Below are positions 2,936-59,961 of a stretch of DNA of 64,000 bases, piece after piece (the stretch's first letter is position 1; each line of letters opens with the position of its first letter). The notes below the pieces were generated by a model. It saw only the letters and a program-made list of their open reading frames with translations, was not told where the DNA came from and did not search any database. The position numbers and the translations under genes were made by a program. Origin of the DNA: a virus. The DNA is taken from positions 1 through 64,000 of IMG/VR virus record IMGVR_UViG_3300042309_001835; one strand, 5' to 3'.

Positions 2936-3013
2936 AAGTTAATAGCAACACAATAGTTAACCAATAATCCACTGCAGAACAGGAAACATAGAGCATCCCG
3001 ATAGGCATATGCA

Positions 3014-3466
3014 GTGACGCAACAACTGGTAACATCACCAGAGGTGATATACGACACCTTGACTGGTGACAGTACTTTTATGAGTTATGTTGGAAGTTAT
3101 GTGTTCACAAATAGCAACACAACTCTTGACTCCATCAGTATTTTAAGCCCCGGCCAGGACTTGCCACGCCTGAAATCAGTCAACGGCATGGAAGTAGTCA
3201 TACATGACGTCGGCCCAATCAATCGAATTGACTATATAAGTGACGCATCAAGCAGTCTGGTTACATGGAAGTGCTATTTAATAGCATGGGAAGGAGCAAC
3301 TGGCGGCACACTGATGGCAGCAATGCGCCGCATGATTGAACTATTCAGTGGTGCGCGATCAATTGAAATTACGCCAGCCAGTATTGACGCAGTTGGATCG
3401 GAATTAAGAGCATTAACACAAATTTTGGTTACTATTCCTGAGAATTCTATTGTGATTCCACAATAG
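3014..3466 (+). CDS. putative tail terminator protein
   Basis: 150 aa, directly upstream of the tail tube gene, preceded by the late motif. Confidence 0.5.
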   Translation: MTQQLVTSPEVIYDTLTGDSTFMSYVGSYVFTNSNTTLDSISILSPGQDLPRLKSVNGMEVVIHDVGPINRIDYISDASSSLVTWKCYLIAWEGATGGTLMAAMRRMIELFSGARSIEITPASIDAVGSELRALTQILVTIPENSIVIPQ

Positions 3467-56069: not shown

Positions 56070-56240
56070 TTACAATCCCCTTGTTTCATAGTATCCACGA
56101 TTTAATTGAACCCAGAAAGCGGATGCTTCAATGCGCTGGCTCCAGGCTTCTGGGTCCGATGGGTCGTGGATATTTTGCAGATATATTGGCGGGAACATTG
56201 AACGCTTCCAGGCCCTGAAGGCCCAATAAATATAGCCCAC
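56070..56240 (-). CDS. possible 56-aa protein (not in ORF track)
   Basis: GTG-started open frame MGYIYWAFRAWKRS... Confidence 0.35.
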   Translation of the reverse strand: MGYIYWAFRAWKRSMFPPIYLQNIHDPSDPEAWSQRIEASAFWVQLNRGYYETRGL

Positions 56241-56271
56241 GCTATTGCAGACAAACTAGCATAGATTACCA

Positions 56272-56373
56272 GCGCCCAGACGGGAATCGAACCCGCATCG
56301 TAGTCCTGTCATATAGCATTGCGTCCAACGCATCAGCCAGGTACCGACCTGTCCAGTTGGTTCGGACTGGGCG
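56272..56373 (-). ncRNA. tRNA-like RNA with enlarged anticodon arm
   Basis: CGCCCAG/CTGGGCG acceptor stem, GCGGG-TTCGATT-CCCGT T arm, extended D and anticodon arms. Confidence 0.7.
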
Positions 56374-56374
56374 A

Positions 56375-56448
56375 CGACTCAGACAGGACTCAAACCTGTG
56401 ACCGACCGCTTAGAAGGCGGTTGCTCTATTCAACTGAGCTACTGAGCC
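56375..56448 (-). tRNA. tRNA-Arg(TCT)
   Basis: ACCGC-CT-TCT-AA-GCGGT, canonical D arm, T loop TTTGAGT. Confidence 0.88.
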
Positions 56449-56461
56449 ATTAGTCAGGCAG

Positions 56462-56527
56462 GGCGTCTTACCGTATCGGGCGGTATCTCCTGGCTATGTG
56501 CCAGGCGTGTTCCTTACACCAAGACGC
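56462..56527 (-). ncRNA. miniature tRNA-like RNA (CAT at loop centre)
   Basis: GCGTCTT/AAGACGC, GTGT/ACAC, CCTGG-CA-CAT-AG-CCAGG, ACCG-CCCGATA-CGGT. Confidence 0.6.
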
Positions 56528-56529
56528 AG

Positions 56530-56916
56530 TGACCCTCCTGTTTGTGCATCATCCAGCGTCCTGGGGCTAAGCATAGAGGGTGTTTGCACGGATCTAACCT
56601 GCGATCCGTAAGGGGTACCTTCTCCCTAAGGGGCCCCGCCGGGTCCGGGACGGTTGGTCAACCGTATGCAGTCCGTCGAGCTTGCCAAGTGGGTCGAGGG
56701 CTCAACCGTGGACTAGACGGGCGGAGGTGATCAACCCTCCGGCCTGGAAACCCAGGACTTCACGCAGGTCAACAACGATCGAAAATTTCCGATCCAGAAT
56801 CGACGCAGTGCCCATTCCTGTTGACTGCACCCCGCCGACAGAGCAGCGTGGGGGGTTAACAGAAGGATTGGGCGTGACCGGATACAAAAGTAACCAGACA
56901 GTGGCCCAACCTCTGT
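56530..56916 (-). ncRNA. series of structured RNA modules, including a tRNA-like one at 56715-56836
   Basis: Contiguous GC-rich stems, no credible ORF. Confidence 0.55.
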
Positions 56917-56923
56917 CACTAAC

Positions 56924-56932
56924 AGTATACCA
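56924..56932 (-). promoter_or_regulatory. extended -10 promoter TGnTATACT
   Basis: TGGTATACT about 7 nt upstream of the first RNA module. Confidence 0.65.
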
Positions 56933-56937
56933 CAAAG

Positions 56938-57465
56938 TCAGTCCACGTTGACTGCCATCTCAGACCTGATTTGCTCAAAGTCGATTGGCCTGTAGTCCGT
57001 ATGTTCTACGCATACGCATCTGTATCTGAGATCGGGCTCATCTTTCTCATCCAAGACTTGTCGGTAATGTAAATGTCCATGGATATTGCCCTTGTACCTG
57101 ATGACTCCACAAGTGTGAACAGGAATATGCGTCAGGACATAATGATCCAGGTAATGACACCCTCTGATGTCATCAAAATATTTCACATAGTCCTGTAGCT
57201 TGAAAATATCATGATTTCCTCTGATTAGAATCTTCCTGCCATTCAGCCTTTCTAGACACTTCAGTCCACGCCTGGGAATAGCCACGTCTCCAAGGTGGTA
57301 AACTTTATCCTTGGGGCTAACGGTGTTGTTCCAGTTGTCGATCAATGCTTCATTCATTTCATCTACGTCATCCCAGGGCCTGAGCTTGGAGCCGTCGTCC
57401 CTGGTGAATCGGCAGACGCCGCCATGCCCGAAATGTGTATCAGAGATTAAGAATGTCTTCGTCAT
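56938..57465 (-). CDS. calcineurin-like metallophosphoesterase
   Basis: SDTHFGH, HLGD, GNHD, HGHLH. Confidence 0.9.
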   Translation of the reverse strand: MTKTFLISDTHFGHGGVCRFTRDDGSKLRPWDDVDEMNEALIDNWNNTVSPKDKVYHLGDVAIPRRGLKCLERLNGRKILIRGNHDIFKLQDYVKYFDDIRGCHYLDHYVLTHIPVHTCGVIRYKGNIHGHLHYRQVLDEKDEPDLRYRCVCVEHTDYRPIDFEQIRSEMAVNVD

Positions 57466-58994: not shown

Positions 58995-59079
58995 GCAATA
59001 CTAATGGTTTGAGGTATTGACCTGCGGGTGTCTAGCGGATAATTTAGATATGTCCTTAGACGCCAACAGGCTCTTAGCC

Positions 59080-59961
59080 ATGCAGATCACCAAGCCCATG
59101 CTCGCCGGAACCTATGACGCCTGTAAGGCGCGTTTCCCTTATATGGCGACTCCCAAGATTGACGGCATCCGTTTTGTCATGGTCGAGGGTGTTGCCCTGA
59201 GTCGTTCGTTTAAGCCGATCCGTAATGCTTACGTGCAAAGCACGCTAAGGAGCTGCTTGCCGGATGGCGTTGACGGCGAATTGACTTGCGGTGATACGTT
59301 CCAGTCGTCATCATCGGCAATCATGTCAACCGATGGCACGCCGGATTTCAATTGCTGGATTTTTGATTATGTCGACCCGTTTAGCGATATCGTAGCACCC
59401 TATCGAGATCGGATCACTGATCCAGCGCTAGTTGAACTGGAAACTGAGCAGTTCATTACCATCCTGAAGCCAGAACTGGTTGCCAACGAACAGGAGCTGC
59501 GAGCAGTAGAAGAACGTTACCTTGATGCGGGGTTTGAGGGCGTAATGGTGCGTGACCCGGATGGAGGGTACAAGTTTGGCCGCTCCACGGTCAAAGAGAA
59601 CACTTTACTGAAAGTGAAGCGTTTTGTTGATGACGAAGCAATCCTGGTCGGAGTGCTGGAAAAGCAGCACAACATGAACCAAGCCATGCAAGATGCGTTT
59701 GGGCGCACAAAGCGCTCTACCAGTCAAGACGGCAAAGTTGGTGCCAATACTGCTGGTACGTTGGTCGTGCGTAACGCAGATGGCGTTGAGTTTGGTATCG
59801 GCACAGGGCTCGATGAGGCCATGCGTGCTAAAATTTGGTCCAATCCTGGTGAATTCGTTGGCATGATGGTTAAGTACAAGTATTTTCCCGTTAGCGTCAA
59901 GGAGAAGCCGCGACACCCTGTTTTTCTGGGATTTCGCCATCGCGATGATATTTCGTCATGA
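59080..59961 (+). CDS. ATP-dependent DNA ligase
   Basis: KIDGIR motif I, DGEL, FEGVMVR, LLKVK, RHPVFLGFR. Confidence 0.93.
   Translation: MQITKPMLAGTYDACKARFPYMATPKIDGIRFVMVEGVALSRSFKPIRNAYVQSTLRSCLPDGVDGELTCGDTFQSSSSAIMSTDGTPDFNCWIFDYVDPFSDIVAPYRDRITDPALVELETEQFITILKPELVANEQELRAVEERYLDAGFEGVMVRDPDGGYKFGRSTVKENTLLKVKRFVDDEAILVGVLEKQHNMNQAMQDAFGRTKRSTSQDGKVGANTAGTLVVRNADGVEFGIGTGLDEAMRAKIWSNPGEFVGMMVKYKYFPVSVKEKPRHPVFLGFRHRDDISS

What the first reader, a model, noticed from the sequence alone, without database searches (positions are those of the whole stretch)
56272..56373. 102-nt tRNA with intact acceptor and T arms but an elongated anticodon arm
Seen: a 7-bp acceptor stem, canonical TTCGA T arm and extended D stem (CCGA.CC/GGTCGG, loop AACTGGACA). 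The CCTG/CAGG stem encloses about 30 extra nt, including a TGCGT-TGG-ACGCA hairpin with TGG at its tip. It lies 1 nt downstream of tRNA-Arg. Inference: the elbow is preserved but decoding geometry is not, as expected of a tRNA mimic or a tRNA with a small intron. Intact stems argue against simple decay.
Basis: partly seen in the sequence, partly recalled or inferred. Interest (0 to 1): 0.7.

Follow-up and report, generated by a model that had tools for sequence, protein, structure and literature searches.

The report
Anticodon-less tRNA mimic in phage operon
This 102-base phage gene folds like a tRNA, but a conserved rod-shaped arm sits where the anticodon should be; it belongs to an apparently undescribed family of non-decoding tRNA look-alikes in uncultured freshwater phages, often made next to RNAs that resemble a bacterial antitoxin.

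Summary
On the minus strand, 56373 to 56272, there is a 7-bp acceptor stem, a U8, a D arm with GG in its loop, a canonical T arm and a discriminator. It starts 1 nt after tRNA-Arg(UCU). ARAGORN and the Rfam tRNA model do not call it.

It is neither a decaying gene nor an intron-bearing tRNA. About 29 distinct relatives lie on about 48 IMG/VR phage contigs. They keep the tRNA body with many compensatory changes. None has a canonical anticodon loop (5-bp stem, 7-nt loop, U33).

- Short forms (~76 nt) seal the arm with a roughly 7-bp stem and a YGCU tetraloop.
- Long forms (~101 nt), like this one, carry a longer arm ending in a covarying 6-bp hairpin capped by GACG.

I found the family in no GenBank phage, in no Rfam family, and in none of 150 other sampled cyanobacterial genomes.

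Half of the members lie just downstream of an abiF or abiF-like RNA, the antitoxin RNA of the AbiF HEPN RNase toxin.

Most likely the host tRNA enzymes cut it out and its arm is the working part, possibly as an anti-defence decoy. That function is inferred, and I have no RNA evidence for the element itself.

This scan has already noted other sealed-anticodon phage tRNA mimics on other DNA.

The parts
56367..56373 (-). 5' strand of the 7-bp acceptor stem (RNA positions 1-7); C1 pairs with G72
   Evidence: Sequence read. Pairs 1-7 with 95-101 are 100% paired in 20 members, and 5 of 7 change on both sides.
56365..56366 (-). Connector U8 and C9
   Evidence: U8 is invariant. Position 9 is G in six relatives and is left unpaired by RNAalifold.
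56345..56364 (-). D arm (RNA 10-29): a stem with one bulged or mismatched layer and a 9-nt loop carrying A14, A15, G18, G19 and A21
   Evidence: Loop residues are invariant, though partly forced by the search pattern. The pair 15-25 switches between C-G and U-A.
56300..56344 (-). Payload arm in place of the anticodon arm (RNA 30-74): base pairs 30-74, 31-73 and 32-72, a 3' bulge, the CCUG/CAGG stem, an asymmetric internal loop and a terminal hairpin
   Evidence: Base pairs 31-73 and 32-72 covary, and the outer stem has one G-C to A-U change. RNAalifold predicts the same arm independently.
56316..56331 (-). Terminal 6-bp hairpin of the payload arm with a GACG loop (RNA 43-58)
   Evidence: 100% paired in 7 long forms, and 4 of 6 pairs change on both sides. 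It is also present in L038 and L071.
56297..56299 (-). Short variable region GAU (RNA 75-77); U77 is the candidate partner of A15
   Evidence: G75 and T77 are invariant in 20 members.
56280..56296 (-). T arm (RNA 78-94): 5-bp stem and a UUCGAUU loop
   Evidence: 100% paired, and 3 of 5 pairs change on both sides. The G-U cells fit this strand only.
56272..56279 (-). 3' strand of the acceptor stem plus discriminator C; no CCA is encoded and the next base is U
   Evidence: The trailer starts with T in nearly all members.
56375..56448 (-). Canonical tRNA-Arg(UCU), 1 nt upstream of the element in the same transcript direction
   Evidence: ARAGORN; Rfam tRNA model, 63.8 bits.
56532..56580 (-). Diverged abiF-like hairpin RNA upstream in the same non-coding stretch; its enlarged loop holds a second GACG-capped hairpin
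   Evidence: Full-length but weak match to Rfam abiF: 16.5 bits against a gathering score of 37. The same variant is conserved in L010, L113, L196, L203, L007 and L009.
56235..56252 (-). Terminator-like hairpin with a U-rich tail, 20 nt after the element
   Evidence: Consensus scan only.
56922..56932 (-). Extended -10-like box (TGnTATACT) that would start the roughly 650-nt non-coding stretch
Evidence: The consensus scan did not call a full promoter.

Best explanation
The element is the gene of a non-decoding, tRNA-shaped RNA. It belongs to a conserved family carried by uncultured freshwater phages that are probably cyanophages.

Shown:
- The acceptor stem, the T arm, the D arm and the nucleotides that build the tRNA elbow are kept under selection.
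- The anticodon arm is replaced. Short forms have a sealed stem of about 7 bp with a YGCU tetraloop. Long forms, as here, have a longer rod with an internal loop and a GACG-capped hairpin.
- The element is often packed 1-2 nt behind a real tRNA.
- Half of the members lie just downstream of an abiF or abiF-like RNA.

Inferred:
- It is transcribed with tRNA-Arg from the promoter-like box at about 56930.
- Host RNase P and a 3' tRNA-processing enzyme, probably RNase Z, cut it out. It is then probably given a CCA tail.
- The tRNA body therefore serves as a handle for processing and stability, like an engineered 'tRNA scaffold'. The arm is the working part.
- My best guess for the job, at roughly 0.3, is titration of a tRNA- or RNA-directed host defence factor. 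It would act together with the co-transcribed abiF-like antitoxin mimic.
For: Non-decoding:
- ARAGORN with default settings and the Rfam tRNA model do not call it. In a 120-nt search at E up to 10 only the T arm matches.
- None of about 29 distinct relatives has a canonical 5-bp stem and 7-nt loop with U33.

Selection on structure:
- 20 members: 95% of cells paired, 10 of 18 pairs changed on both sides, 0 of 500 shuffles as high, and slid controls at 32-50%.
- 7 long forms: 94% paired, and 15 of 29 pairs changed on both sides. RNAalifold finds the same fold.
- The elbow and core nucleotides are invariant.

Strand: the wobble cells are G-U. None of the 240 cells in the acceptor and T helices is unpaired, so no A-C occurs there.

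tRNA-type processing: in five independent contexts the element lies within a few nt of a real or ARAGORN-called tRNA (Arg, Ile, Pro, Leu, and a Cys-like call with anticodon ACA). The spacer is 1-2 nt where read exactly. The trailer starts with U and no CCA is encoded.

Phage-specific, as far as searched:
- 596 Gb of prokaryote genomes gave 48 pattern hits, about the chance number. Only one is real, on a 3.3-kb scaffold that resembles phage contigs.
- 0 of 150 other Cyanobacteriota genomes match.

Link to abiF:
- The Rfam abiF motif, at 54.7 bits, sits 3-4 nt upstream in L095 and its like.
- 15-16 of 30 members have the abiF-like 3' half within 400 nt upstream on the same strand.
- Abi_2 genes occur in 19 of 201 sampled cyanobacterial genomes, one of them with an abiF RNA.

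Upstream part of the stretch: contigs from RNA libraries of three studies cover 56618-56904. The tool notes that presence in an RNA library does not by itself show transcription.
Against: - There is no RNA evidence for the element itself.
- No partner protein is known. No protein gene is conserved next to all members.
- The discriminator base varies (C, A, U), and the payload arms differ between subgroups, so one common ligand is not assured.
- The invariance of the D arm is partly forced by the search patterns I used.
- The abiF association holds for about half of the members only. The window's own abiF-like element scores far below Rfam's threshold.
Confidence: 0.6

Rival explanations
1. It is pure punctuation. 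The tRNA shape only recruits RNase P and RNase Z to cut neighbouring RNAs (tRNA-Arg, abiF-like RNAs) out of the precursor. The released mimic has no job of its own, like mascRNA at the MALAT1 3' end.
For: It lies directly behind abiF RNAs (3-4 nt) or a few nt behind tRNAs. It is the last unit before a terminator-like hairpin.
Against: - Where a real tRNA already follows the abiF-like RNA, the mimic is not needed for cutting (window, L010, L196).
- Several members stand alone behind a terminator-like hairpin (L038, L041) or a -10-like box (L112, L121).
- The arm sequences (YGCU loop, GACG hairpin, internal-loop motifs) are conserved beyond what a processing signal needs.
- One phage carries two copies with different arms (L104).
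Confidence: 0.15
2. It is a charged but non-ribosomal tRNA. It would be aminoacylated by a synthetase that ignores the anticodon and would feed a tRNA-dependent transferase or mislead a sensor of charged tRNA.
For: The acceptor stem, elbow and discriminator are intact, and the acceptor sequence is fairly conserved.
Against: - The discriminator varies (C, A, U).
- There is no G3-U70, no long variable arm, and no G-1 (upstream base is T or C).
- No tRNA-dependent enzyme gene was seen nearby.
Confidence: 0.07
3. It is a real decoding tRNA, either after removal of a small intron or with an exotic anticodon loop.
For: The tRNA body is complete. At a lowered threshold ARAGORN offers a tRNA-Pro(UGG) reading on a different, poorly paired fold.
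Against: - Removing the insert leaves no loop.
- Short relatives have a 4-nt loop.
- The UGG-tipped hairpin is not conserved.
- A 29-nt insert cannot be a group I intron. From general knowledge, bacteria lack the archaeal splicing endonuclease.
Confidence: 0.03
4. It is a decaying tRNA pseudogene.
For: tRNA finders fail on it.
Against: There are compensatory changes in every stem, including the inserted hairpin, across phages whose neighbouring protein is only 46-73% identical.
Confidence: 0.02
5. It is a DNA-level site, such as an attachment site or origin that copies a tRNA gene.
For: Phage attachment sites often overlap tRNA genes (general knowledge).
Against: - No tyrosine integrase in the 75.5-kb genome.
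- The whole tRNA body is kept, not just a 3' half.
- G-U pairs fit one strand only.
- No cellular counterpart was found.
Confidence: 0.02

Closest known systems
Canonical bacterial or phage tRNA (Rfam RF00005)
   Same: 7-bp acceptor stem, U8, a D loop with GG, a 5-bp T stem with a UUCRA loop, a discriminator, and tandem packing with real tRNAs.
   Different: No anticodon loop. The D stem has an extra mismatched layer, there is no position 26, and the variable region is 3 nt. It scores below threshold with the tRNA model.
Viral and cellular tRNA-like processing modules: murid herpesvirus 68 vtRNAs and mascRNA at the MALAT1 3' end (from general knowledge)
   Same: Cloverleaf-like RNAs that do not decode, are cut by tRNA enzymes, and are joined to other small RNAs in one precursor.
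   Different: Those are eukaryotic, with no sequence relation and no Rfam match here. In this family the arm itself is conserved and elaborate.
Engineered 'tRNA scaffold' for expressing recombinant RNA (Ponchon and Dardel 2007, from memory)
   Same: The anticodon arm of a tRNA is replaced by a payload RNA, while the body provides processing and stability.
   Different: That is a laboratory design. This would be a natural counterpart, and its payload function is unknown.
Bacterial pseudo-tRNAs and tRNA mimics: Bacillus cereus tRNA-Other and the tRNA-like domain of YrlA (from general knowledge)
   Same: tRNA-shaped RNAs with non-translational roles.
   Different: tRNA-Other keeps an anticodon loop. 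YrlA has its ends in the Ro-binding stem, not in the acceptor stem. Neither is related in sequence.
Other sealed-anticodon phage tRNA mimics noted earlier by this scan (for example e1-4035431 and e1-5820437; AI notes)
   Same: Phage-encoded tRNA bodies whose anticodon loop is closed by a tetraloop or replaced by another structure.
   Different: Those sit behind a PTH2 hydrolase gene and use GNRA or CUUG caps. This genome has no PTH2. This family uses YGCU or a long GACG-tipped arm and goes with abiF-like RNAs.

Membership tests
Canonical tRNA (RF00005) | 7-bp acceptor stem with discriminator | tested here: met
   (100% paired, covarying).
Canonical tRNA (RF00005) | T arm with a UUCRA loop and a D loop with GG (elbow) | tested here: met
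   Invariant columns; T stem covaries.
Canonical tRNA (RF00005) | 5-bp anticodon stem with a 7-nt loop, U33 and an anticodon | tested here: not met
   No member has it. L073 and L101 have a 7-nt loop but A at position 33.
Canonical tRNA (RF00005) | Score at or above the Rfam gathering score (29 bits), or an ARAGORN default call | tested here: not met
   (only a local T-arm match).
Intron-containing tRNA | Removing the insert restores an anticodon loop | tested here: not met
   CCUG would join CAGG directly. Insert-free relatives have a tetraloop.
Intron-containing tRNA | Insert has a group I core or a bulge-helix-bulge motif at position 37/38 | tested here: not met
   The insert is 29 nt. No Rfam intron match. 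ARAGORN in intron mode does not call it.
tmRNA or tRNA-Sec | Match to the family model, or a tag reading frame or UCA anticodon | tested here: not met
   ARAGORN -m found nothing. In Rfam, tRNA-Sec reaches 13 bits and the permuted tmRNA model 8.1 bits on the T arm only.
abiF RNA motif (RF03085) | The element itself matches the abiF model | tested here: not met
   No match on the element. The motif lies upstream of relatives, and a weak variant lies upstream here.
Non-decoding tRNA mimic processed by tRNA enzymes | tRNA body under selection without a decoding loop | tested here: met
Non-decoding tRNA mimic processed by tRNA enzymes | Made as RNA, cut by RNase P or RNase Z, and CCA added | not testable with these tools
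   Contigs from RNA libraries did not cover the element. The 1-nt spacing behind tRNA-Arg is indirect support only.

The most novel reading that the evidence does not exclude
The roughly 650-nt non-coding stretch (56272-56932) would be a phage anti-defence RNA operon aimed at HEPN RNases of the AbiF kind, the ancestors of Cas13. The abiF-like RNA would mimic the host antitoxin and silence the toxin. The tRNA look-alikes would serve as decoy substrates or adaptors. These are this anticodon-less one with its GACG-tipped arm, plus the mini-tRNA with an anticodon-like loop. The GACG hairpin, present both in the abiF-like RNA and in this arm, would be a shared ligand for one protein.
Probability: 0.15. 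Interest if true: 0.85.

Novelty: new variant of a known kind. Interest (0 to 1): 0.62.

Why it matters
Phage tRNA genes are usually read as codon supplements or as replacements for tRNAs destroyed by host defences. A conserved family that keeps the whole tRNA body but gives up decoding points to a different use: the tRNA shape as a chassis for another RNA function. The repeated linkage to abiF-type antitoxin-like RNAs gives a concrete, testable lead into RNA-based counter-defence in cyanophage-like viruses. The family is also a natural example of the 'tRNA scaffold' idea used in RNA engineering. It also shows that standard tRNA finders and Rfam miss this class.

Tried and rejected
- **RNA evidence for the element.** One search for runs and one lay of four metatranscriptome runs. 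Contigs cover 56618-56904, plus unrelated tRNA-Arg look-alikes, but not 56272-56373. These are contigs only, so they show no ends and no CCA.
- **Mistyped pattern scan.** Wrong spacing returned only chance hits. It was corrected.
- **Prokaryote genome scan.** 48 hits, about the number expected by chance for 17 fixed bases. Only L143 is real.
- **GenBank phages.** blastn with a short and a long form found no match.
- **Literature.** Five searches and three papers opened gave no description of such a family. The supplement of the 2023 IMG/VR structured-RNA catalogue is not held.
- **Conserved neighbour genes.** There is no universal partner. The adjacent phosphoesterase is present in about a third of lineages and looks like the ligase-associated DNA-repair nuclease PdeM, so it is not a tRNA enzyme.
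- **PTH2, CCA-adding enzyme and integrase.** None found in this genome.
- **Kink-turn reading of the internal loop.** The G-A next to CAGG is present only in the window, not in relatives.
- **Hammerhead reading of CUGAUG.** Relatives have UUGAUG, and there is no GAAA.
- **Alternative D pairing GUCC/GGAC.** No covariation, and a mismatch in L086.
- **Weak Rfam raiA-hairpin similarity of the first 12 nt.** Treated as chance.

Full report
**What is there.** The window is part of a 75.5-kb IMG/VR phage record with a terminase, a portal protein, primase and helicase genes, a ribonucleotide reductase and a DNA ligase. The finding lies on the minus strand. Read from 56373 down to 56272, the 102 nt give:
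- a 7-bp acceptor stem;
- U8;
- a D arm whose 9-nt loop carries the GG of a tRNA elbow;
- a 45-nt arm;
- a 3-nt variable stretch;
- a 5-bp T stem with a UUCGAUU loop;
- the 3' acceptor strand and a discriminator C.

No CCA is encoded. One U separates the element from the discriminator of a canonical tRNA-Arg(UCU) at 56375-56448.

ARAGORN at default settings, ARAGORN in intron mode and the Rfam tRNA model do not call the element. In a search of only 120 nt at E up to 10, Rfam matches nothing but the T arm. The minimum-energy fold of the single sequence is only modestly better than shuffles (z = -1.99), so the case rests on relatives.

**Relatives.** I collected relatives in four ways:
- an exact-word scan;
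- three degenerate-pattern scans of IMG/VR;
- loci fetched through the neighbouring phosphoesterase gene;
- a covariance model built on the first members (R1).

Together they gave about 29 distinct sequences on about 48 viral contigs. Two contigs carry a copy identical to the window's. The others come from phages whose phosphoesterase is only 46-73% identical to the window's.

All members share the tRNA body. In the 20-sequence alignment A1 the nucleotides that build the tRNA core and elbow are invariant: U8, A14, A15, G18, G19, A21, U48, G53, U54, U55, C56, A58 and C61. Part of the D-arm invariance is forced by my search patterns.

For the acceptor, D and T helices:
- 95% of cells are paired;
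- 10 of 18 pairs show changes on both sides;
- no shuffle out of 500 reaches the observed covariation;
- sliding the partners drops pairing to 32-50%.

The wobble cells are G-U. None of the 240 cells in the acceptor and T helices is unpaired, so no A-C occurs there. This fits an RNA read from this strand.

**The arm.** No member has a canonical anticodon arm.
- Short forms (74-80 nt) have a stem of about 7 bp, counting G30-C74. It is closed by a 4-nt loop, mostly UGCU or CGCU, and its stem covaries (for example CCGC/GCGG against CUGC/GCAG).
- A few members have other tips, such as a 5-nt loop, or a 7-nt loop with A at position 33.
- Seven long forms of 100-102 nt, including the window, plus two more distant ones (L038, L071), carry an extended arm.

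The extended arm runs, from base to tip:
1. two to three base pairs at the foot (31-73 and 32-72 switch between C-G and U-A and between A-U and G-C);
2. a small 3' bulge;
3. a 3-4-bp stem (CCUG/CAGG here, CUA/UAG in L206);
4. an asymmetric internal loop with conserved letters;
5. a 6-bp hairpin capped by GACG.

That hairpin is paired in all 42 cells, and four of its six pairs change on both sides. RNAalifold recovers the same architecture without my input. It also suggests that C9 is unpaired and that G30 pairs with C74. This fits the six relatives that have G at position 9.

It breaks in relatives such as L089.

**What it is not.**
- Not a decaying tRNA, because of the covariation.
- Not an intron-bearing tRNA. 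Removing the insert leaves no loop, insert-free relatives are sealed, and 29 nt is far below group I size.
- Not tmRNA or tRNA-Sec.
- Not likely a DNA site. There is no integrase, the pairs are strand-specific, and there is no cellular counterpart.

The 17-base D-arm pattern hit 48 places in 596 Gb of prokaryote genomes, about the chance number. Only one is a true member. It lies on a 3.3-kb scaffold binned with a cyanobacterial MAG, and that scaffold resembles the viral contigs. Model R1 found no member in 150 further Cyanobacteriota genomes. Canonical tRNAs score 35 bits or less with R1, and family members 41-95 bits.

GenBank phages hold no blastn match. Rfam 15 has no family for it. I found no description in the papers searched.

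**Context.** The element is the last unit of a roughly 650-nt stretch without a credible reading frame. The stretch runs from an extended -10-like box near 56930 to a terminator-like hairpin 20 nt behind the element. Contigs from RNA libraries of three studies cover 56618-56904, the upstream part of this stretch, but not the element. The tool cautions that presence in an RNA library does not by itself show transcription.

In relatives the mimic sits a few nt, 1-2 where read exactly, behind tRNA-Arg, tRNA-Ile, tRNA-Pro, tRNA-Leu or a tRNA-Cys-like gene. In others it stands alone behind a terminator-like hairpin or a -10-like box. One phage has two copies with different arms 270 nt apart (L104). 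Spacing that tight is what tRNA-processing enzymes handle in phage tRNA clusters. This is the main, indirect, reason to think that RNase P and RNase Z release the mimic.

**The abiF link.**
- In L095, L100, L101, L107 and L073/L088 the Rfam abiF motif lies 3-4 nt upstream of the mimic. It scores 54.7 bits in L095 against a gathering score of 37, and only 27.7 bits in L088.
- The abiF RNA is the antitoxin of the AbiF (Abi_2) HEPN RNase toxin, a type III toxin-antitoxin pair and the proposed ancestor of Cas13 (bioRxiv 10.1101/2025.04.15.648962; PMC12737573).
- In the window a diverged version lies at 56532-56580. The outer stem, the 3-bp inner stem and the CAAAC bulge are kept. The loop is enlarged to 23 nt and holds its own GACG-capped hairpin. 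The score is only 16.5 bits.
- That variant, with covarying outer stem, recurs in L010, L113, L196, L203, L007 and L009. A second variant recurs in L086, L104, L114, L206 and L208.
- In all, 15-16 of 30 mimic copies have the abiF-like 3' half within 400 nt upstream on the same strand, against about 0.05 expected per copy.
- The only two GACG hairpins on the window's minus strand with a G-C closing pair are the one in the abiF-like RNA and the one in the mimic's arm.
- Abi_2 genes occur in 19 of 201 sampled cyanobacterial genomes, one of them with an abiF RNA upstream. Hosts of such phages can therefore carry the system.

**Host.** Three observations point to cyanophages from fresh water, though this is not proven:
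- glutamine riboswitches in related contigs;
- a DUF3155 protein nearby;
- the freshwater origin of the runs that hold parts of the stretch.

**How it most likely works.** Shown: a tRNA body under selection without a decoding loop, a conserved and covarying arm, tight packing with tRNAs, and linkage to abiF-like RNAs.

Inferred:
- The RNA is cut out by host tRNA enzymes and probably CCA-tailed.
- The body gives stability and correct ends.
- The arm is the working part.

The closest functional picture is a natural 'tRNA scaffold'. For the job of the arm I favour titration of a host RNA- or tRNA-directed defence factor, acting with the antitoxin-mimic RNA (about 0.3). The next most likely is a pure processing role (0.15). 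No protein partner emerged from neighbour analysis. The adjacent phosphoesterase is a PdeM-like DNA-repair enzyme paired with the DNA ligase, not a tRNA enzyme. There is no PTH2, no CCA-adding enzyme and no integrase in the genome.

**Novelty and score.** Non-decoding tRNA look-alikes are a known kind (viral vtRNAs, mascRNA, pseudo-tRNAs). This scan has already noted other sealed-anticodon mimics in phages on other DNA (AI notes that I did not test). This family differs from those in three ways: its body, its YGCU-capped or GACG-tipped arm, and its company of abiF-like RNAs. I rate it a new variant of a known kind, with interest 0.62. The structure and conservation are solid, and the function is open.

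Noticed in passing
L095:7516-7552 (-); also L100:2503-2534 (+), L088:6010-6041 (-), L087:6051-6087 (+): Orphan abiF RNA motifs (Rfam RF03085, up to 56 bits) in phage contigs with no abiF gene seen beside them. In L095, L100, L101 and L107 the motif ends 3-4 nt before the tRNA mimic. They look like phage-borne antitoxin mimics.
   Followed up: partly
window 56532-56580 (-): Diverged abiF-like hairpin whose loop is enlarged to 23 nt and holds a CCAG-GACG-CUGG hairpin. The same variant, with covarying outer stem, is conserved in L010, L113, L196, L203, L007 and L009. It scores far below the Rfam threshold (16.5 bits).
   Followed up: partly
window 56461-56528 (-): A 68-nt 'mini-tRNA', called tRNA-Met(CAU) by ARAGORN only at a lowered threshold. 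Its anticodon-like loop has A instead of U33, and its T loop (CCCGAUA) is non-canonical. Relatives L086 and L008 have 66-nt versions that ARAGORN calls at default settings.
   Followed up: partly
window 56618-56904 (-): Large structured non-coding RNA candidate between the promoter-like box and the abiF-like hairpin. Contigs from RNA libraries of three studies cover it (one 100% identical over 162 nt). No Rfam match.
   Followed up: partly
L008:3621-3713 (+) and L009, around 2960-3050 (+): A 93-nt tRNA-like gene directly behind a GGTATAAT or GGTATACT box. It has an acceptor stem, an anticodon-like arm, a long extra arm and a T arm, but almost no D arm. ARAGORN labels it tRNA-Phe(GAA).
   Followed up: no
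L104:9426-9505 (-) and L104:9700-9775 (-): Two paralogous copies of the mimic with different arms lie 270 nt apart in one phage. The upstream copy directly follows tRNA-Pro(UGG).
   Followed up: no
L196:11454-11527 (-) and L203:5012-5085 (-): The tRNA just upstream of the long-form mimic is called tRNA-Cys with the unusual anticodon ACA. It may be another non-standard tRNA.
   Followed up: no
window 56938-57465 (-) and 59017-59961 (+): The 175-aa phosphoesterase resembles the ligase-associated DNA-damage nuclease PdeM (TIGR04123, E 9e-9; PDB 1xm7). An ATP-dependent DNA ligase gene lies 1.5 kb away. This looks like a phage copy of a DNA-repair pair.
   Followed up: partly
L095:6509-6563 (+) and L099:5273-5404 (+): Glutamine-II and glutamine (glnA) riboswitch aptamers in related phage contigs, which suggests cyanobacterial hosts.
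   Followed up: no
window 56352-56373 (-): The first 12 nt of the mimic resemble the 5' flank of the Rfam raiA-hairpin consensus (12.4 bits, E 3.9). Probably chance.
   Followed up: no
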